NCBI GenBank assembly: GCA_044228445.1 | Contig: JBGAUV010000001.1 | Span: 250,495 to 314,494 of the forward strand | Origin: Minisyncoccia bacterium | GTDB taxonomy: Bacteria > Patescibacteriota > Minisyncoccia > Phycocordibacterales > PALSA-1337 | DNA: 64,000 bases | Direction: 5' to 3' | Part shown: positions 3,723-63,680 of the stretch, in pieces | Layout: the number at the start of each line of letters is the position of its first letter | Position numbering within the stretch: the stretch's first letter is position 1 | Position numbers and translations under genes: made by a program | Notes under the pieces: generated by a model | Databases searched by the model: none | What the model saw: only the letters and a program-made list of their open reading frames with translations | What the model was told of the DNA's origin: nothing

Positions 3723-5250
3723 TTAGTTAAGAGTTTGATCCTAGCTCAGGATGAACGCTGGCGGCGTGGATAAGGCATGCAAGTCAAACGGCTTAGCACT
3801 GTGCTCGCAAATTAATATTTGTTAGTAGAGTGCTAAGCAGTGGCAGACGAGGTAGTAATAAGCAGGTATCAACCTTCGAGTCAAGAATACCTCATCGAAA
3901 GATGAGTTAATACTTGATAGTCTCGAAAGAGTAAAGATTTATCGCTCGAAGATGAGCCTGTTCAGTATCAGCTAGTTGGTAGGGTAATGGCCTACCAAGG
4001 CTTCGACGCTTAGGGGAGGTGAGAGCCTGACCCCCACCGATGGAACTGAGACACGGTCCATACACCTACGGGTGGCCGCAGTCGAGAATCTTCCGCAATG
4101 GACGAAAGTCTGACGGAGCGACGCCGCGTGGATGATGAAGCACTTCGGTGCGTAAAATCCTTTTGCCAGGGAGAAAGTTTATTGATAGTACTTGGCGAAT
4201 AAGAGGTTGCTAAACTCGTGCCAGCAGCAGCGGTAATACGAGTGCCTCAAGCGTTATCCGGAATCATTGGGCGTAAAGGTTGTGTAGGTGGTTATATTAG
4301 TCTTTTGTTAAATTCTTCGGCTTAACCGGGGGCATGCAGAGGAAACGGTATAACTAGAGGATGCGAGGGGTTTCTGGAACTCATAGTGTAGCGGTAAAAT
4401 GCGTTGATATTATGGGGAACACCAAAAGCGAAGGCATGAAACTAGAGCACTCCTGACACTGAAACAAGAAAGCGTGGGTCGCGAATGGGATTAGATACCC
4501 CAGTAGTCCACGCCCTAAACGATCTTCTCTTGCTTTTCGGAGTATCGACCCTCCGAGAGGCGAAGCTAACGCGTTAAGAGAAGCGCCTGGGTAGTACGAC
4601 CGCAAGGTTAAAACTCAAAGGAATAGACGGGGACTTGCACAAGCGGTGGATCATGTGGCTCAATTCGACGGTAAACGAAGAACCTTACCAGGGTTTGAAA
4701 CCTAGCTGAATACTTTAGGAAACTAGAGTAGTCGCAAGACAGTTAGGCAGGTGATGCATGGCCGTCGTCAGTTCGTGGCTTGAGTTGTTCCCTTCAGTGG
4801 GGTAACGAACGCAACCCTCGTTGTCTGTTATATTTGTCAGGCGAGACTGCCCACGACATAGCGCATAAACTAAGTTTGTGCTCTGCGTCGTGGGAGGAAG
4901 GTGAGGATGACGCCAGGTCAGCATGTCCCTTTGATACCCTGGGCTGCACACGTGATACAATCGTATCTACAACAGGACGCAATACCGATAAAAGGTGGAG
5001 CAAATCCTTAGAAAAGATACGTCAGTTTGGATTGAGGTCTGCAACTCGACCTCATGAAACCGGAATCGCTAGTAATCGCAGATCAGCTATGCTGCGGTGA
5101 ATACGTTCTCAAGTCTTGTACTCACCGCCCGTCAACTCAAGGGAGTTGGGAGTACCCGAAGTCCGCGCTTGTCGCGGCCTAAGGTAAGCTCAATGACAGG
5201 GAGTAAGTCGTAACAAGGCACGGGTAGCGGAAGCTGCTCGTGGATTATTT
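3723..5250 (+). rRNA. rrs: 16S ribosomal RNA
   Basis: AGAGTTTGATCCTAGCTCAG at 3730; GTGCCAGCAGCAGCGGTAATACG (515 region, one mismatch to the universal primer); AAGTCGTAACAAGG at 5206; helix 45 with GGAA loop at 5221-5240. Confidence 0.95.
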
Positions 5251-5407
5251 CAAATTGAATCTTGATAATCCCTCAGGGATTATCTTACCGAGTCGATTTT
5301 TGTACTTAATTGTACAAACAAGGGATATTGTTCTACTACCTTACAGTGAACACTCAGTCTGCGAGAGAAAAGACAAAGATCGGTGTCCTCTATAGAGACA
5401 CTGATCG

Positions 5408-5437
5408 GATGAATGGAACAAAATAAAGTACAGTAAT
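5408..5437 (+). other. 3' strand of the 16S processing stem
   Basis: ATGAATGGAACAAAATAAA is complementary to 3701-3720. Confidence 0.6.
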
Positions 5438-5444
5438 ATGAAAG

Positions 5445-5475
5445 AACCGCTTAAAAGGCGGTTTTTTCTTTTTAT
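5445..5475 (+). terminator. Rho-independent terminator closing the 16S transcription unit
   Basis: AACCGC-TTAAAAG-GCGGTT followed by TTTTTCTTTTT. Confidence 0.7.
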
Positions 5476-5563
5476 AAATAATTATTTCCACATTTACTAT
5501 ATTTGATATGTGTGATATGTTTTTAGTGGAAATCTAGACATAGAGTCTAGTTAGAAAGGAGAT

Positions 5564-5722
5564 ATGAACAGACTTCAACTTGCTCGTAGGGTTGAGTATA
5601 GTCAACCCTCTGTTAAAGAACAAAAGCAATCAATCAGTGTTGGTTCATTTTTGCTTGCTTTGTTTATATTTATATTGGCTTTTGGGCCAATGGTAGTAGA
5701 AGGATTTCTTACAACATTTTAA
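5564..5722 (+). CDS. Small (52 aa) protein with a C-terminal TM helix
   Basis: AAAGGAGAT immediately 5' of the ATG; MNRLQLARRVEYSQPSVKEQKQSISVGSFLLALFIFILAFGPMVVEGFLTTF; below the ORF-track size cutoff. Confidence 0.4.
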   Translation: MNRLQLARRVEYSQPSVKEQKQSISVGSFLLALFIFILAFGPMVVEGFLTTF

Positions 5723-5799
5723 GGAGAGAAAGGAGATATGTTTCAATTTTTATAACCACGCGATTCTTTATGCGCGTGGTTTGTCATCTAGTTTAATAT

Positions 5800-6486
5800 A
5801 TGAAAATAAAATTTTTCAAAATAATAGTTTTAATAATAGCAATATTGTTCTCAAAACATGCTTTTGCAAAAGAAGTTATATGTCCTGAGGGGTATATTTG
5901 CTTACCAAAAAATGATCCACTTATACTTGCTTCAACAAGTCCTTGTTTTATAGGTTCAAGCATGACAACCTCTTTTAAGGATTTAGATTCAAAAGCTAAA
6001 TCAATAGGTGATAGTATTTCATTTAAATTATTAAATAAGAATAAAGATTACGCTGGTACTTGGGGAGTATTTAAAAGTGGAAGTGGATCAAGTCCTGATT
6101 ACAATAAAGATTGGGGTTTTGAACTAAGTCTAAATCTTTCAAAATTAAAAACCATAAAGTCTATTACAATTATAAACGATGATGGTAATGAAGGTTGGTC
6201 AACTAGTGCGGATGAAAAGTTATTTGGTAAAAAGCCTTATCCTCTTGTTGTTATAGATAAAAATGGAGAGCAATTAAATTATGAATATGAAGATACTATT
6301 TTTATACCAAAAGGTGAAAGTATTTTAAATCTATACGGTCAGATTGAATATAGTGACTTAAGAAATACGGAAATTGTTGTTATTTTCACTGATAATACTT
6401 ATTTGAATAGTAAGATTATTGAAAATGCTTCAACTCAAGCAAATAATAGTCTTTGGGCTAAGTTAAAATCTAAGTTTGGATTTTAA
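5800..6486 (+). CDS. Secreted protein of unknown function
   Basis: Signal peptide MKIKFFKIIVLIIAILFSKHAFA|KE; no recognisable domain. Confidence 0.6.
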   Translation: MKIKFFKIIVLIIAILFSKHAFAKEVICPEGYICLPKNDPLILASTSPCFIGSSMTTSFKDLDSKAKSIGDSISFKLLNKNKDYAGTWGVFKSGSGSSPDYNKDWGFELSLNLSKLKTIKSITIINDDGNEGWSTSADEKLFGKKPYPLVVIDKNGEQLNYEYEDTIFIPKGESILNLYGQIEYSDLRNTEIVVIFTDNTYLNSKIIENASTQANNSLWAKLKSKFGF

Positions 6487-6523
6487 TTGATGTTTAGTCG
6501 TATTTTTGGTATATTCAACAATG

Positions 6524-6555
6524 TTTTAAATGCGCGTATAGCTGACTTGGTAGGG
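6524..6555 (+). repeat. Degenerate duplicate of the tRNA-Ile 5' half plus its upstream flank
   Basis: ATGCGCGTATAGCTgacTTGGTAGgG versus ATGCGCGTATAGCTcagTTGGTAGaG at 6590-6615; diverges after the D-arm. Confidence 0.6.
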
Positions 6556-6591
6556 TTGAGTGTCACTTATACGTTTTGAGATTTTTACCAT

Positions 6592-6664
6592 GCGCGTATA
6601 GCTCAGTTGGTAGAGCACACCACTGATACTGGTGGGGTCCCTGGTTCGAGTCCAGGTACGCGCA
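6592..6664 (+). tRNA. tRNA-Ile (anticodon GAU), CCA not encoded
   Basis: Manual cloverleaf: acceptor GCGCGTA/TACGCGC, D-arm GCTC/GAGC, anticodon stem CACCA/TGGTG with loop CTGATAC, T-arm CCTGG-TTCGAGT-CCAGG. Confidence 0.9.
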
Positions 6665-6758
6665 CAAAGTTTTTATATTTCAAAAAATGTGGTAATGTAT
6701 TTGTGGAAAGGAGAAAAAATGACCGCATATACATTCGAAGGAAAAAAATAAAAAATCA

Positions 6759-60226: not shown

Positions 60227-60646
60227 ATGTTAGTTGTTAAGACTAAAATTAAAAATAGTGAAATTGAAGGACTAGGTCTATTTGCTGATCAGTTTATACC
60301 TAAAGGTAGTGTAATTTGGAAATATGATCCAAGTTTTGATATTTATTTTGATCCTAAGGAGGTAGAAAAAATGTCAGAACCGCAAAAAGACCTGATAATA
60401 CATTTTGCTTATCTTTCAAAAAAAAGTGGTAAATATGTTTATTCAATAGATAATACAAGATTCACAAATCATTCAAATAAACCAAATACCGTAGAAGATG
60501 AAAATGTTTGTAGTGATGATTTAGAAATATGTACTATTGCTGTTAAGGATATTCAAATAGGGGAGGAAATTACTATTGATTATCGGGTAATTGACGCAGT
60601 GGATGAAGGTAGTAATGAGGAGTATTTGAAGACGGTAGTTCTATAG
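60227..60646 (+). CDS. SET-domain protein (putative lysine methyltransferase)
   Basis: GLGLFA, RFTNHSNKPN, GEEITIDY; starts 3 nt after the nrdB stop, preceded by GGGGGAG. Confidence 0.8.
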   Translation: MLVVKTKIKNSEIEGLGLFADQFIPKGSVIWKYDPSFDIYFDPKEVEKMSEPQKDLIIHFAYLSKKSGKYVYSIDNTRFTNHSNKPNTVEDENVCSDDLEICTIAVKDIQIGEEITIDYRVIDAVDEGSNEEYLKTVVL

Positions 60647-60663
60647 AGTTTTTATGGTTTAGG
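60628..60663 (+). repeat. Junction motif copy 1
   Basis: GAAGACGGTAGTTCTATAGAGTTTTTATGGTTTAGG; supplies the last 6 codons and the stop of the SET gene. Confidence 0.7.
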
Positions 60664-60703
60664 AATAAAAGTGGGCTCACCGAAACGAATTTCAGTGAGC
60701 CCA
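60660..60703 (-). terminator. Minus-strand terminator hairpin
   Basis: On the minus strand: TGGGCTCAC-N14-GTGAGCCCA followed by CTTTTATT. Confidence 0.5.
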
Positions 60704-60748
60704 GGGACAACCTTTTTCTCATGTTTCGCTCGCCACTACTTAGATACC

Positions 60749-60921
60749 TAAGATTTAGGCAAAAATTTACCCCACTTACATTTCCGTAAGTGGGGCGTAC
60801 CTAGGAATTTAGGATGACTTGAATCGTCTTGCGACGAATGATCAGAGCCATAAAAACCTAGATATATAAGATACTGACTTCTACATCACAGCAAACTACT
60901 ATAACTTTGTCAAGTGACAAA
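60749..60921 (+). repeat. 173-bp repeat, copy 1
   Basis: 172/173 identical to 62711-62883 by manual alignment (C/T difference at 60888 versus 62850). Confidence 0.9.
60758..60878 (-). ncRNA. Candidate sRNA A, copy 1 (~120 nt)
   Basis: Minus-strand promoter TTGACA-N17-TGTGAT (60885-60913); internal TCGTC-GCAA-GACGA hairpin; terminator CCCCACTTAC-GGAAAT-GTAAGTGGGG then TAAATTTTTG. Confidence 0.5.
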
Positions 60922-60937
60922 TGTGTGTACCTAAAAC

Positions 60938-60964
60938 AGTGGTCTCATAGAGTTTAAGGTCTAG
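60938..60964 (+). repeat. Junction motif copy 2
   Basis: AGTGGTCTCATAGAGTTTAAGGTCTAG. Confidence 0.7.
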
Positions 60965-60969
60965 CTATA

Positions 60970-60998
60970 TTGACATACTAAACTAAATGTGCTATTTT
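60970..60998 (+). promoter_or_regulatory. Promoter of cassette A: TTGACA-N17-TATTTT with extended -10 TG
   Basis: Read directly. Confidence 0.5.
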
Positions 60999-61017
60999 TG
61001 TATGTAATAGCACATTT
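60985..61017. promoter_or_regulatory. 11-bp perfect inverted repeat spanning the -10/TSS (operator-like)
   Basis: AAATGTGCTAT-N11-ATAGCACATTT. Confidence 0.55.
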
Positions 61018-61050
61018 CAACGATTTCAACCCAAAACCATTAGGAGAACC

Positions 61051-61425
61051 ATGAGCAAGCCTTCTTTCACCGTATTTGTTGGCATAAAGGGCGAATTCTC
61101 AGAAGAAGATTACGCCAAACTTCCGTCCGAGCTTCGAAAAGCATACTCGCCGTGTCCTGAATGGGATCTGGGAGAGGAAATCATTATCGACGGATTGGAA
61201 TTTGATTCCTTTGACCTTGGTCGCGATGACACTGCTGATCCGGGAGAATATGTGGGCTTCGGCGTCCATATCTTCGGTCAGTGGTATGACAGCGGAGCTA
61301 CTTGCTTCGCTCTTGATGAGCTTCAAACAATCGAATCTGTTCGTCAGAAGATGACAACTCTCTTCGATCAATGGAAGCTCGATGCCAAAGTCGAAGTGTT
61401 CTGCTTTGCAGGATACAATTCATAA
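61051..61425 (+). CDS. Island cassette A: acidic 124-aa protein, unknown function
   Basis: TAGGAGA-N5-ATG; GC-rich codon usage unlike the flanks; own terminator. Confidence 0.65.
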   Translation: MSKPSFTVFVGIKGEFSEEDYAKLPSELRKAYSPCPEWDLGEEIIIDGLEFDSFDLGRDDTADPGEYVGFGVHIFGQWYDSGATCFALDELQTIESVRQKMTTLFDQWKLDAKVEVFCFAGYNS

Positions 61426-61441
61426 CCCATCAACTCACTCC

Positions 61442-61480
61442 AGAAAACCCCTGTCGCGAGATGGTGGGTTTTCTGTTTTA
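61442..61480 (+). terminator. Rho-independent terminator of cassette A
   Basis: AGAAAACCC...GGGTTTTCT-GTTTTAT. Confidence 0.7.
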
Positions 61481-61654
61481 TAAAATTCCAATATGTTGAT
61501 ACTAACAGACTTGAACGGCATCCTAAATAGATGTCATTTATTGTTACTTGCTATATAAAAATCTCGTTGATATGTTGTTAGGTAAGACGAGCTTGAAATC
61601 AAAATAAAAACTAGAGCATCTTCTATGGGGAATTCAATCAGTATTTAACTCTGT

Positions 61655-61688
61655 GAAGACGGTAGTATTATAGAGTTTAAGGTTTAGA
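61655..61688 (+). repeat. Junction motif copy 3
   Basis: GAAGACGGTAGTATTATAGAGTTTAAGGTTTAGA; the upstream AGTATTT is also shared with copy 1. Confidence 0.7.
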
Positions 61689-61692
61689 CTAC

Positions 61693-61720
61693 TTGACATA
61701 TGACCATGTCGTGATATAAT
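61693..61720 (+). promoter_or_regulatory. Promoter of cassette B: TTGACA-N16-TATAAT with extended -10 (TGa)
   Basis: Near-consensus sigma70 promoter read directly. Confidence 0.7.
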
Positions 61721-61779
61721 TTAAAAGGACTAGGATTTTTCCTAATGCTGTCCAGCAAAATCATACTTGGAGGATAGAA

Positions 61780-62139
61780 ATGTACTCTGACGATAAAACT
61801 CTAAAAGAGTTCATGACTGTACTTGTAAGTACAGCTGCGGCTCGGAGAAACTACTTGGATGTCCCTAGCGATTTCATTTTGAGACATCCCTGGACACTGA
61901 AATACCTTTCCAATTTCGCTGAGGCTGACGATTTCATGCAGATCGCGAAAACGGAAGGAGTCCAGATTGTTTGCGAGGATGAACCCAAAAACATTCAAGA
62001 GTTTCGCCGGGACCATGGTCTCAAACCACAGGTTCGCTACAAAGTGTTTGTTCCAGCCGAAACAAAAATCAGAACAAAAGAACAGATCTTCAAGTTCGAA
62101 AGACAAGGAGATGGTTCATATGTTCCACTCAATGGCTGA
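61780..62139 (+). CDS. Island cassette B: 119-aa protein, unknown function
   Basis: TGGAGGA-N5-ATG; own terminator. Confidence 0.65.
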   Translation: MYSDDKTLKEFMTVLVSTAAARRNYLDVPSDFILRHPWTLKYLSNFAEADDFMQIAKTEGVQIVCEDEPKNIQEFRRDHGLKPQVRYKVFVPAETKIRTKEQIFKFERQGDGSYVPLNG

Positions 62140-62142
62140 ACC

Positions 62143-62187
62143 AAAACCCCATCTACGCTTTCATGAGAAGATGGGGTTTTGTCTTTT
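62143..62187 (+). terminator. Rho-independent terminator of cassette B
   Basis: AAAACCCCATCT-N14-AGATGGGGTTTT-GTCTTTT. Confidence 0.75.
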
Positions 62188-62188
62188 A

Positions 62189-62222
62189 GAAGATGGTGGT
62201 TTAATGTAGTTTAAAATTTAGA
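62189..62222 (+). repeat. Junction motif copy 4
   Basis: GAAGATGGTGGTTTAATGTAGTTTAAAATTTAGA. Confidence 0.6.
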
Positions 62223-62388
62223 TAAAAGAAAGCCGGCCAAACCTTATGGGTCTGGCCGGGAAAGTGATGGGTATGCGCCCATCTGCGGATCATTTACGAT
62301 CATTTTGCCAGTAAAATAAGGTTATTTCTGGTTACGTATCCCTGGTATTGTGTCCAGACACGTAACTTATGAATACTAACCTTATTCT
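62222..62388 (-). ncRNA. Candidate sRNA B (~165 nt), same promoter as sRNA A, different body
   Basis: Promoter TTGACA-N17-TATGAT (62395-62423, minus strand). Long hairpin AATAAGGTTA...TAACCTTATT enclosing GTTACGT/ACGTAAC. GATGGG-CGCATA-CCCATC hairpin. Terminator CCGGCCAGACC-CATAAGG-GGTTTGGCCGG then CTTTCTTTT. Confidence 0.5.
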
Positions 62389-62429
62389 TTTACCATCATA
62401 GCAAATTACTATAACTTTGTCAAGTATTC

Positions 62430-62462
62430 AAAGATGTCGGTGTTATGGAGTTCAAGTTCTAA
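62430..62462 (+). repeat. Junction motif copy 5
   Basis: AAAGATGTCGGTGTTATGGAGTTCAAGTTCTAA. Confidence 0.55.
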
Positions 62463-62478
62463 CCTCTATTGATATAAT
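62451..62478 (+). promoter_or_regulatory. Promoter of cassette C: extended -10 TGaTATAAT, weak -35 TTCAAG
   Basis: Read directly. Confidence 0.5.
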
Positions 62479-62522
62479 TAATCTAGAGTGTTAATCTTCT
62501 TTTTAAGAAAGGAGAGTACATC

Positions 62523-62720
62523 ATGATCAAAATTACTGTCCGTAAAGAAGGAGAGAGAACCTTTGCGGCCTATGTGGACGATGAAAATATGCGGCGCATA
62601 GGTGAGTCTCGAGGAGAAGCTGTTGGCAAAGTCGTATCTGATCTCATTGAACAAAGGTCAGTACGGTTGGAAGATTGTCAAGTGCATCAAATCGAGATTA
62701 AACAAAAATATAAGATTTAG
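62523..62720 (+). CDS. Island cassette C: 65-aa protein, faint HicB/DUF1902-like N-terminal pattern
   Basis: AAAGGAGAG-N6-ATG; MIKITVRKEGERTFAAYVDD...GESRGEAVGKVVSDLIE. Confidence 0.55.
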   Translation: MIKITVRKEGERTFAAYVDDENMRRIGESRGEAVGKVVSDLIEQRSVRLEDCQVHQIEIKQKYKI

Positions 62721-62883
62721 GCAAAAATTTACCCCACTTACATTTCCGTAAGTGGGGCGTACCTAGGAATTTAGGATGACTTGAATCGTCTTGCGACGAA
62801 TGATCAGAGCCATAAAAACCTAGATATATAAGATACTGACTTCTACATCATAGCAAACTACTATAACTTTGTCAAGTGACAAA
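62711..62883 (+). repeat. 173-bp repeat, copy 2
   Basis: See copy 1; begins inside the last codons of cassette C. Confidence 0.9.
62720..62840 (-). ncRNA. Candidate sRNA A, copy 2
   Basis: Promoter TTGACA-N17-TATGAT (62847-62875, minus strand); body identical to copy 1. Confidence 0.5.
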
Positions 62884-62910
62884 GATAGTGGTCTCATCGG
62901 GTTTAAAATA
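62881..62910 (+). repeat. Junction motif copy 6 (degenerate)
   Basis: AAAGATAGTGGTCTCATCGGGTTTAAAATA. Confidence 0.5.
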
Positions 62911-62917
62911 ACCAGTA

Positions 62918-63331: not shown

Positions 63332-63336
63332 TATTA

Positions 63337-63672
63337 GGTACCAGACAGTTGCTATGATACGAAAGTATCGTAGAGGAAAGTCCGAACATTGGCCTGACGC
63401 AAGTTAGGCAGAAAGGTAGCGGGTAACGCCCGTCAGTCGAAGGACTAGAGGTGCGAACAGAGACGTCTTTATTGGAAACGATAAAGAGACCCTTCGGGGT
63501 TAGCTTGTATAGAAATATATGAGGTGCAACGGCAAAATCCTTACCCCAATGCAAGGCCGTGCTTTATAGGAAACTATAAAGAGTGCCGCTTGAGGTTAAT
63601 TGCAAAATTAATCCCAGATAAATGACTGTCGTTCGTTTTTAACGAATACAGAATTCGGCTTACAGGTACAAT
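63337..63672 (+). ncRNA. rnpB: RNase P RNA, bacterial type A
   Basis: ACCAGACAGTTGC, GAGGAAAGTCCG, GGTAACGCC, GCAAGGCC, GCCGCTTGAGG, AGATAAATGACTGTC, ACAGAATTCGGCTTA all align to the E. coli M1 RNA conserved blocks. Confidence 0.9.
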
Positions 63673-63680
63673 ATGAAAAA

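What the first reader, a model, noticed from the sequence alone, without database searches (positions are those of the whole stretch)
62222..62423. Third sRNA candidate uses the same conserved promoter block but has an unrelated, highly structured body
The 32-nt block CATCATAGCAAAtTACTATAACTTTGTCAAGT (62394-62425) matches the promoter end of the 173-bp repeat with one mismatch. The ~165 nt transcribed leftward share no similarity with sRNA A. They fold into a ~90-nt irregular hairpin, two short hairpins and a GC-rich terminator. A portable promoter driving different RNA payloads suggests modular, co-regulated riboregulators.
Basis: seen in the sequence. Interest (0 to 1): 0.6.

Follow-up and report, generated by a model that had tools for sequence, protein, structure and literature searches.

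The report
Orphan small-RNA cassette sharing a portable promoter
A roughly 165-base, strongly folded, non-coding unit with a near-perfect promoter and a clean terminator sits in a strain-variable array of tiny foreign gene cassettes in an uncultured Saccharibacteria-type genome; its promoter is shared with two unrelated RNA bodies, but nothing shows yet that the RNA is made or has a function.

Summary
The 32-nt block occurs three times in 64 kb against 0 expected. On the minus strand it reads TTGACA-17-TGnTATGAT. It is followed by about 165 nt with no credible ORF, a 76-nt irregular hairpin, two short hairpins and an intrinsic terminator (fold z = -6.2). The body is unrelated to sRNA A and matches no Rfam family.

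A sister genome has the same block at the equivalent position, upstream of the same 65-aa gene, driving a third unrelated body (RNA D). The promoter is therefore portable.

The context changes the reading. The unit is one cassette in a 2.7-kb array between nrdB and rnpB. The array cassettes are 36-47% GC (RNA C 42.5%); the rest of the window is 28%. Single transcription units are separated by a 33-nt junction motif (J) derived from the 3' end of ychF. Related arrays abut ychF in three other genomes, and one lies next to an integrase. Homology between strains breaks at J and at the promoter block. This resembles the PeSL promoter/terminator cassettes that shuffle ORFans in T4-type phages.

All copies of RNA C found are 100% identical, so covariation cannot be tested. 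No target was found. 'Modular' is supported; 'co-regulated riboregulators' is untested.

The parts
62394..62425 (-). Conserved promoter block. -35 TTGACA at 62423-62418, 17-nt spacer, TG at 62403-62402, -10 TATGAT at 62400-62395.
62387..62390 (-). Inferred transcription start, about 7 nt downstream of the -10. Not mapped experimentally.
   Evidence: inference and the sequence
62313..62388 (-). 5' irregular hairpin of 76 nt, beginning at the inferred start.
   Evidence: (positions 3-78 of the folded 173-mer)
62302..62312 (-). Single-stranded linker UUUUACUGGCA. It is a candidate interaction site, by inference only.
62288..62301 (-). Short hairpin 2 (GAUC / GAUC stem).
62266..62283 (-). Short hairpin 3 (GAUGGG / CCCAUC stem).
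62223..62259 (-). Intrinsic terminator. Stem-loop at 62259-62233 (11 pairs, 8 G-C), then U-tract at 62232-62223. One G-U pair becomes an A-C mismatch on the plus strand, and there is no T-run on the plus side.
62190..62222 (+). Junction motif J4 (AAGATGGTGGTTTAATGTAGTTTAAAATTTAGA). It abuts the U-tract and forms the left boundary of the RNA C cassette.
62431..62463 (+). Junction motif J5, the copy most like the native ychF 3' end. It forms the right boundary of the cassette and lies upstream of the ORF65 promoter.
60884..60915 (-). Copy of the promoter block in front of sRNA A copy 1. Its -10 is TGTGAT.
62846..62877 (-). Copy of the promoter block in front of sRNA A copy 2.

Best explanation
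RNA C is a stand-alone transcription unit for a non-coding, highly structured RNA of about 165 nt. A near-consensus extended -10 sigma-70-type promoter starts transcription near 62388. The RNA folds from its first bases into a 76-nt hairpin and ends at an intrinsic terminator near 62223.

The unit is one cassette of a horizontally acquired, strain-variable array. In this array, single transcription units are separated by a 33-nt junction motif derived from the 3' end of ychF. Small orphan protein genes lie on the plus strand and structured RNAs on the minus strand.

The RNA cassettes share both ends. At the 5' end they share the promoter block. At the 3' end the U-tract abuts CCTAAA, the end of J. 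Different bodies are exchanged between these two handles by recombination, as PeSL cassettes are in T4-type phages.

Shown: the sequence signals, the fold, the cassette boundaries and the payload swap. Inferred: that the RNA is transcribed, that it is stable, and that it acts in trans as an accessory RNA, binding a protein or base-pairing. Its target is unknown.
For: Promoter, terminator and fold. The only other TG-extended sites scoring 11/12 or better in 64 kb are the copy-2 sRNA A promoter, the ORF119 promoter and the rnpB promoter, which serves as a positive control.

Coding: no ORF of at least 20 codons lies inside the unit. The best is a 19-codon ORF with no Shine-Dalgarno sequence.

Payload swap: the same block at the same position drives a different body in L001 and L010-L019.

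Shared 3' end: all minus-strand units (A, C, D, F, E and a truncated remnant) end with a U-tract directly on the J end.

J derives from the ychF 3' end.

Cassette mobility: the ORF124 cassette is homologous from J to its terminator in a different genome, next to an integrase.

Foreign origin: cassette GC is 41-47% against 28% for the rest of the window.
Against: There are no expression data.

RNA C was found only as 100% identical copies in 7 short metagenome contigs. RNA D is likewise invariant. There is therefore no covariation and no evidence of purifying selection.

The fold is nearly as stable on the plus strand (z = -4.6, 4 G-U pairs on each strand). The structure alone does not show selection at the RNA level.

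RNA D is only weakly structured (z = -2.3).

No target complementarity above chance was found. No Rfam family matches.
Confidence: 0.55

Rival explanations
1. Transcribed junk or an insulator. The body is a decayed or arbitrary filler caught between a retained portable promoter and a retained terminator/J end. It is transcribed but has no function of its own. At most it serves as a convergent terminator plus divergent promoter that insulates the neighbouring cassettes ORF119 and ORF65.
For: The distribution is strain-level only, with identical copies. The payloads are unrelated to one another, and D is weakly structured. The array carries other debris: a promoterless truncated minus-strand unit at 60672-60748 and a 5'-truncated ORF72 in L001. 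No targets were found.
Against: The fold of C (z = -6.2) and of A (z = -6.4) is far beyond shuffles. The GC-rich body has been kept in a 28% GC genome. The promoter and terminator are intact.
Confidence: 0.25
2. A DNA-level element. The imperfect palindromes and the conserved block would be recombination or structured-DNA sites of the cassette system (attC-like), and the promoter resemblance would be incidental.
For: Both strands fold almost equally well. Homology breakpoints coincide with the block and with J. Two deletions in the window end at the same J-internal position.
Against: The block scores 11/12 against the consensus, with correct 17-nt spacing and an extended -10. It is paired with a strand-specific terminator carrying a U-tract on the same strand. 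A diverged copy of the block in L030 drives a small ORF. No attC-type R''/R' cores are visible in the sequence, and no integrase is present in the window.
Confidence: 0.1
3. A locus-internal regulator. RNA C would be an antitoxin-like or antisense RNA controlling the divergent ORF65 or the convergent ORF119, as in type I or type III toxin-antitoxin systems.
For: The arrangement pairs a small orphan ORF with a divergent or convergent small RNA. ORF65 keeps an RNA unit upstream in two lineages: C in the window and D in L001.
Against: There is no overlap with either mRNA. Duplex energies with the 5' and 3' regions of ORF124, ORF119, ORF65 and ORF72 fall within shuffles, with z from -1.3 to +1.7. 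The partner RNA of ORF65 differs completely between lineages (C versus D), and in L020 ORF62 has no upstream RNA at all. The neighbouring proteins are hydrophilic. There are no tandem RNA repeats.
Confidence: 0.07
4. A small-protein gene. The unit would encode the 19-aa peptide MIVNDPQMGAYPSLSRPDP, starting at 62303.
For: The ORF exists. In L030 a block-like promoter drives a 43-aa ORF.
Against: There is no Shine-Dalgarno sequence. The start lies 85 nt into the transcript, after a stable hairpin, and the stop lies in the terminator loop. RNA D has no AUG-initiated ORF, by direct reading of the sequence.
Confidence: 0.03

Closest known systems
PeSL (promoter-early stem-loop) mobile regulatory cassettes of T4-type phages (Arbiol et al. 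2010, PMC2839356; Comeau et al. 2014, PMC4122927)
   Same: Both have repeated composite motifs made of a strong sigma-70-like promoter and a stem-loop terminator. The motifs flank small ORFan genes in a hyperplastic region. Indels and replacements between close relatives are bounded by the motifs (for PeSLs; here).
   Different: The array here lies in a cellular, Saccharibacteria-type chromosome between nrdB and rnpB and has no phage match. The repeat includes a gene-3'-end-derived 33-nt motif. Some cassettes carry non-coding RNA bodies rather than ORFs. Mini-circles were not tested.
Integron gene-cassette arrays
   Same: Both are arrays of small, mostly orphan, strain-variable cassettes separated by a recurring site. 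Non-coding cassettes exist in both.
   Different: There is no IntI, attI or Pc here. J is 33 nt and is not an attC-type imperfect palindrome. Each cassette has its own promoter and terminator.
Integrative elements that target the 3' end of a conserved gene and duplicate it as att sites
   Same: J is a repeated copy of the last 33 nt of ychF. Arrays abut ychF in L020, L029 and L030, and a tyrosine integrase lies beside a J-flanked cassette in L026.
   Different: The cassettes are only 200-700 bp and carry no integrase. The array in the window is not next to ychF, and no integrase lies within the 64 kb.
Generic bacterial trans-acting sRNA genes (own promoter, 5' stem-loop, Rho-independent terminator)
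   Same: The anatomy is the same: promoter, structured body, terminator and no ORF.
   Different: There is no family assignment, no conservation beyond clonal copies, no predicted target and no expression data.

Membership tests
Any Rfam 15 RNA family | The covariance-model score reaches the family's gathering threshold. | tested here: not met
   The best hit on the unit scores 19.9 bits against a threshold of 100. All hits have E > 0.06 and lie far below gathering scores.
Bacterial stand-alone sRNA gene | Its own promoter and Rho-independent terminator on the same strand, with no ORF. | tested here: met
Bacterial stand-alone sRNA gene | A discrete transcript is detected. | not testable with these tools
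   No transcriptome data are available.
Bacterial stand-alone sRNA gene | Structure conserved with covariation in homologues. | tested here: inconclusive
   Only 100% identical copies were found. No divergent homologue turned up via pattern scans or neighbouring-gene homologues.
Bacterial stand-alone sRNA gene | Complementarity to a target mRNA. | tested here: not met
   Only the 64-kb window and neighbouring mRNAs could be tested, so this covers a small part of the genome.
PeSL-type mobile regulatory cassettes | Repeated strong promoter plus stem-loop composite flanking ORFans in a hyperplastic region, with inter-strain indels bounded by the repeats. | tested here: met
PeSL-type mobile regulatory cassettes | Located in a T4-type phage genome. 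| tested here: not met
   The window carries 16S rRNA, nrdAB and rnpB. No phage, IMG/VR or plasmid match was found.
PeSL-type mobile regulatory cassettes | Circular excision products (mini-circles). | not testable with these tools
   Contig L002 starts and ends inside sRNA A. That fits a tandem arrangement as well as a circle.
Integron | An IntI tyrosine recombinase with adjacent attI and Pc. | tested here: not met
   A box II regex search and tblastn with the L026 integrase both found nothing in the window. Both are weak tests.
Integron | attC sites: imperfect palindromes with RYYYAAC / GTTRRRY cores between promoterless cassettes. | tested here: not met
   J is 33 nt and non-palindromic. The cassettes have their own promoters.
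Type I / type III toxin-antitoxin RNA | Antisense overlap or complementarity with the toxin mRNA (type I), or tandem RNA repeats upstream of the toxin on the same strand (type III). | tested here: not met
Gene-3'-end-targeting integrative element | Repeated copies of the target gene's 3' end at element boundaries. | tested here: met
   J aligns without gaps to the last 33 nt of ychF.
Gene-3'-end-targeting integrative element | A cognate integrase in or beside the element. | tested here: inconclusive
   A PF00589 gene lies beside the J-flanked cassette in L026. None is present in the window.

The most novel reading that the evidence does not exclude
Saccharibacteria-type genomes may carry a previously undescribed cassette system. 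In it, a 33-nt site derived from the ychF 3' end delimits and mobilises single transcription units. These include non-coding RNA cassettes that share a standard promoter and a standard 3' end, in effect a natural expression vector for interchangeable structured RNAs. The units would be moved by site-specific recombination with a crossover inside J at GAGTT|TAAGAT.
Probability: 0.2. Interest if true: 0.75.

Novelty: new variant of a known kind. Interest (0 to 1): 0.45.

Why it matters
Almost nothing is known about small RNAs or about gene-flow mechanisms in Saccharibacteria and other CPR bacteria. If RNA C, A and D are real RNAs, they would be the first examples there of accessory RNA genes traded as cassettes under a common promoter. 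The J-bounded array would extend PeSL-like modular shuffling from T4-type phages to a reduced cellular genome. If they are not expressed, the locus is still a clean example of a recombination hot spot that accumulates foreign DNA of higher GC.

Tried and rejected
Rfam at gathering and at permissive thresholds gave nothing.

Exact-pattern scans were run for the promoter block, J and the RNA C hairpin.
- GTDB representative genomes: the block occurs once.
- JGI metagenomes: the block occurs on 2 contigs.
- IMG/VR: no hit for any of the three patterns.

blastn of the array against the phage and plasmid collections gave no match.

I looked for divergent RNA C homologues through homologues of ORF65, ORF119 and ORF124 and their contigs. 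I found the cassettes in other contexts but never RNA C.

Covariation analysis is impossible. All C copies and all D copies are identical.

The target search by blastn-short and RNAduplex stayed at chance level. A first, larger scan timed out.

Neighbour function remains unknown.
- Pfam and PHROGs identify only the SET-domain gene.
- The AlphaFold model of ORF119 is confident (pLDDT 89) but has no PDB fold match.
- The ORF65 model is too poor to use (pLDDT 64.5). My impression that ORF65 looks HicB-like is unsupported.

A search for an integrase in the window found none.

Literature searches for Saccharibacteria sRNAs and for CPR integrons returned nothing relevant. In one search, one of the three search terms was a project accession I had guessed. 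Its hits are irrelevant and are not used.

Rejected readings: integron attC, type I/III toxin-antitoxin, MITE (the unit is single-copy with no terminal inverted repeats or target-site duplication), and a coding gene.

Full report
**What the window is.** The 64 kb are a low-GC bacterial chromosome, 27.9% GC outside the rRNA. It carries a 16S rRNA gene, tRNA-Ile, nrdA/nrdB and a class A RNase P RNA at 63333-63678. The only species-representative genome that contains the promoter block is a MAG deposited as 'uncultured Candidatus Saccharibacteria bacterium' (CAZFXF010000001.1, locus L001). Its nrdAB and rnpB are near-identical to the window's, but the content between them differs.

**Check of the observation.** The 32-nt block is at 62394-62425. 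It has two more copies, at 62846-62877 (1 mismatch) and 60884-60915 (2 mismatches), against 0 expected by chance.
- On the minus strand the block is TTGACA, 17 nt, then TG-n-TATGAT, scoring 11 of 12.
- Sites scoring 11/12 or better are rare. There are five in 64 kb, four of them in 61.7-63.3 kb, and one of those is the rnpB promoter. That shows this promoter type precedes a real RNA gene in this organism.
- Downstream on the same strand lies an intrinsic terminator at 62259-62233, followed by CUUUCUUUUA.
- The 173-nt minus-strand stretch folds into a 76-nt irregular hairpin (62388-62313), two short hairpins (62301-62288 and 62283-62266) and the terminator. MFE is -59.9 kcal/mol and z = -6.2.
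- The body has no match longer than 7 nt to sRNA A or RNA D.
- There is no ORF beyond a 19-codon frame that lacks a ribosome-binding site.
- No Rfam hit comes near threshold.

The description is therefore correct, except that the long hairpin is 76 nt rather than about 90.

**The promoter is portable.** In L001, and in ten further contigs from JGI, NCBI and Logan assemblies (L010-L019), the same block sits upstream of the same small gene. That gene is ORF65 in the window and a 62-aa protein of 97% identity there. In those contigs the block drives a third, unrelated 127-nt body (RNA D) with its own terminator.
- Nucleotide homology between the window and L001 starts exactly at the block (window 62398-62710 aligns to L001 5608-5897). 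To the left of it, C and D are unrelated.
- The non-consensus spacer is conserved among A, C and D. The identity therefore comes from descent or recombination, not from convergence on a consensus.
- A diverged copy, ACTTGACATTCTTATAAATTTTGCTATAAT, occurs in L030. There it drives a 43-aa Cys-rich ORF.

**The context: a cassette array.** Between the SET-domain gene after nrdB and rnpB, every transcription unit is separated by a 33-nt junction motif, J (consensus AAGATGGTGGTCTCATAGAGTTTAAGATTTAGG). J copies start at 60627, 60933, 61656, 62190, 62431 and 62882 and occur nowhere else in the window.
- For plus-strand orphan ORFs (ORF124, ORF119, ORF65, ORF72; no informative family), the -35 element typically lies five bases after the TTTAG end of J (clear for ORF124 and ORF119; J5 and J6 are degenerate here).
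- For minus-strand units, the terminator U-tract abuts that same end.
- RNA C is the cassette between J4 (62190-62222) and J5 (62431-62463).
- The RNA cassettes thus share both a 5' handle (the promoter block) and a 3' handle (U-tract plus CCTAAA), with a variable body between them.

**Origin of J.** In contig L020 the array starts at the end of a gene whose last 20 residues, IRTEGKEYIVKDGDVMEFKV, match the YchF C-terminus (E = 4e-4).
- The last 33 nt of that gene align without gaps to J.
- ychF also abuts related arrays in L029 and L030.
- In L026, a genome of 41% GC, the ORF124 cassette is flanked by J on both sides and lies about 350 nt from a tyrosine integrase gene.
- Its homology to the window begins inside J and ends at the terminator.
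- Array cassettes range from 36 to 47% GC (RNA C 42.5%) in a 28% GC genome, which points to foreign origin.
- The window has no ychF and no detectable integrase.

**Strain variation.**
- The L001-type haplotype has a different cassette set at the same locus.
- Contig L003 shows the locus with a single sRNA A and without the 1962-bp unit that contains RNA C. L003 and L002 come from the same assembly, where the two A copies are identical, so L003 may be a repeat-collapsed path rather than a true haplotype.
- Relative to L004/L003 and L002, the window lacks about 49 nt and 79 nt to the left of the two sRNA A copies. Both gaps end at the same J-internal position, GAGTT|TAAGATTTAGG (and direct reading). 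I cannot explain this.

**What could not be shown.**
- All seven contigs carrying RNA C are 100% identical over 62180-62470, and RNA D is also invariant. Covariation cannot be tested.
- Pattern scans of GTDB genomes, JGI metagenomes and IMG/VR, blastn against phages and plasmids, and walks through homologues of ORF65, ORF119 and ORF124 found no divergent RNA C.
- The fold is nearly as good on the plus strand (z = -4.6, equal G-U counts). The strand assignment therefore rests on the promoter and terminator, not on the structure.
- No complementarity above chance was found to neighbouring mRNAs or to the window.
- The structure prediction for ORF119 is confident but matches no known fold. The ORF65 model is poor.

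**Interpretation.** The best-supported reading is a real, independently transcribed accessory non-coding RNA carried as a mobile cassette (confidence 0.55).
- The shared promoter reflects the modular build of these cassettes and would make A, C and D equally and strongly transcribed. That is a weak, trivial form of co-regulation.
- The closest known system is the PeSL promoter/terminator cassette that mediates modular shuffling of ORFans in T4-type phages (PMC2839356, PMC4122927). It differs by lying in a cellular genome, by using a gene-3'-end-derived junction, and by carrying RNA payloads.
- Rival readings are transcribed filler or an insulator (0.25), DNA-level recombination structures (0.10), a locus-internal antitoxin-like regulator (0.07) and a micro-ORF (0.03).

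**Verdict.** The finding is moderately interesting. It is a plausible but unvalidated orphan RNA gene whose context, a ychF-derived J-bounded cassette array in a CPR genome, is more notable than the RNA itself.

Noticed in passing
window 60627-62914 (J copies starting at 60627, 60933, 61656, 62190, 62431, 62882); also L001, L002, L003, L020, L025, L026, L029: A 33-nt junction motif derived from the 3' end of ychF separates every transcription unit of the array. In most ORF cassettes it lies exactly 5 nt upstream of the -35 element.
   Followed up: yes
window 60748/60749 and 62710/62711: Compared with metagenome haplotypes L004/L003 and L002, the window lacks about 49 nt and 79 nt. Both gaps end at the same position inside J (GAGTT|TAAGATTTAGG), which is also where the 173-bp repeat starts. 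This could be a crossover point, gene conversion or an assembly artefact.
   Followed up: partly
window 60672-60748, minus strand: A good intrinsic terminator (60703-60672) followed by about 45 nt, with no promoter, lies between J1 and sRNA A copy 1. It looks like a truncated further minus-strand RNA cassette.
   Followed up: no
window 60227-60646: A SET-domain protein gene (Pfam E = 9e-16) overlaps the nrdB stop codon and takes its last six codons and its stop from junction motif J1. It is absent from the sister genome L001, where J follows nrdB directly.
   Followed up: partly
window 3723-6665: The 16S rRNA gene and tRNA-Ile are separated by 1.3 kb containing a 228-aa ORF (5800-6486). No 23S rRNA gene lies anywhere in the 64 kb, so the rRNA genes are unlinked.
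   Followed up: no
L001 5988-6215, minus strand: A further J-adjacent minus-strand unit (RNA F, about 190 nt) has a different consensus promoter (TTGACA-17-TAGTAT) and a terminator. It contains a 44-codon basic ORF without a ribosome-binding site. It replaces the 5' end of the ORF72 homologue.
   Followed up: no
L020 400-612: A 210-nt non-coding segment lies between two J copies downstream of ychF and ORF62. It is strongly structured on the minus strand (z = -4.0), and its closing stem is followed by a U-tract. No clear promoter was found.
   Followed up: partly
L030 1880-2125, minus strand: A diverged copy of the promoter block drives a 43-aa Cys-rich ORF that starts about 10 nt after the -10 element, so the mRNA may be leaderless. 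A terminator follows. The unit is convergent with the ORF124 homologue downstream of ychF.
   Followed up: partly
L026 4616-6470: A tyrosine integrase gene is followed by a small plus-strand promoter/terminator unit, then J, an ORF124 homologue, J' and a Bro-N domain gene. This is a mobile-element context for the same cassette in a 41% GC genome.
   Followed up: partly
window 62166-62202; 61455-61480: The 3' arms of the plus-strand ORF terminators (GATGGGG / GATGGTGG followed by a T-run) resemble the 5' half of J (AAGATGGTGG). Terminators and J may share an origin.
   Followed up: no
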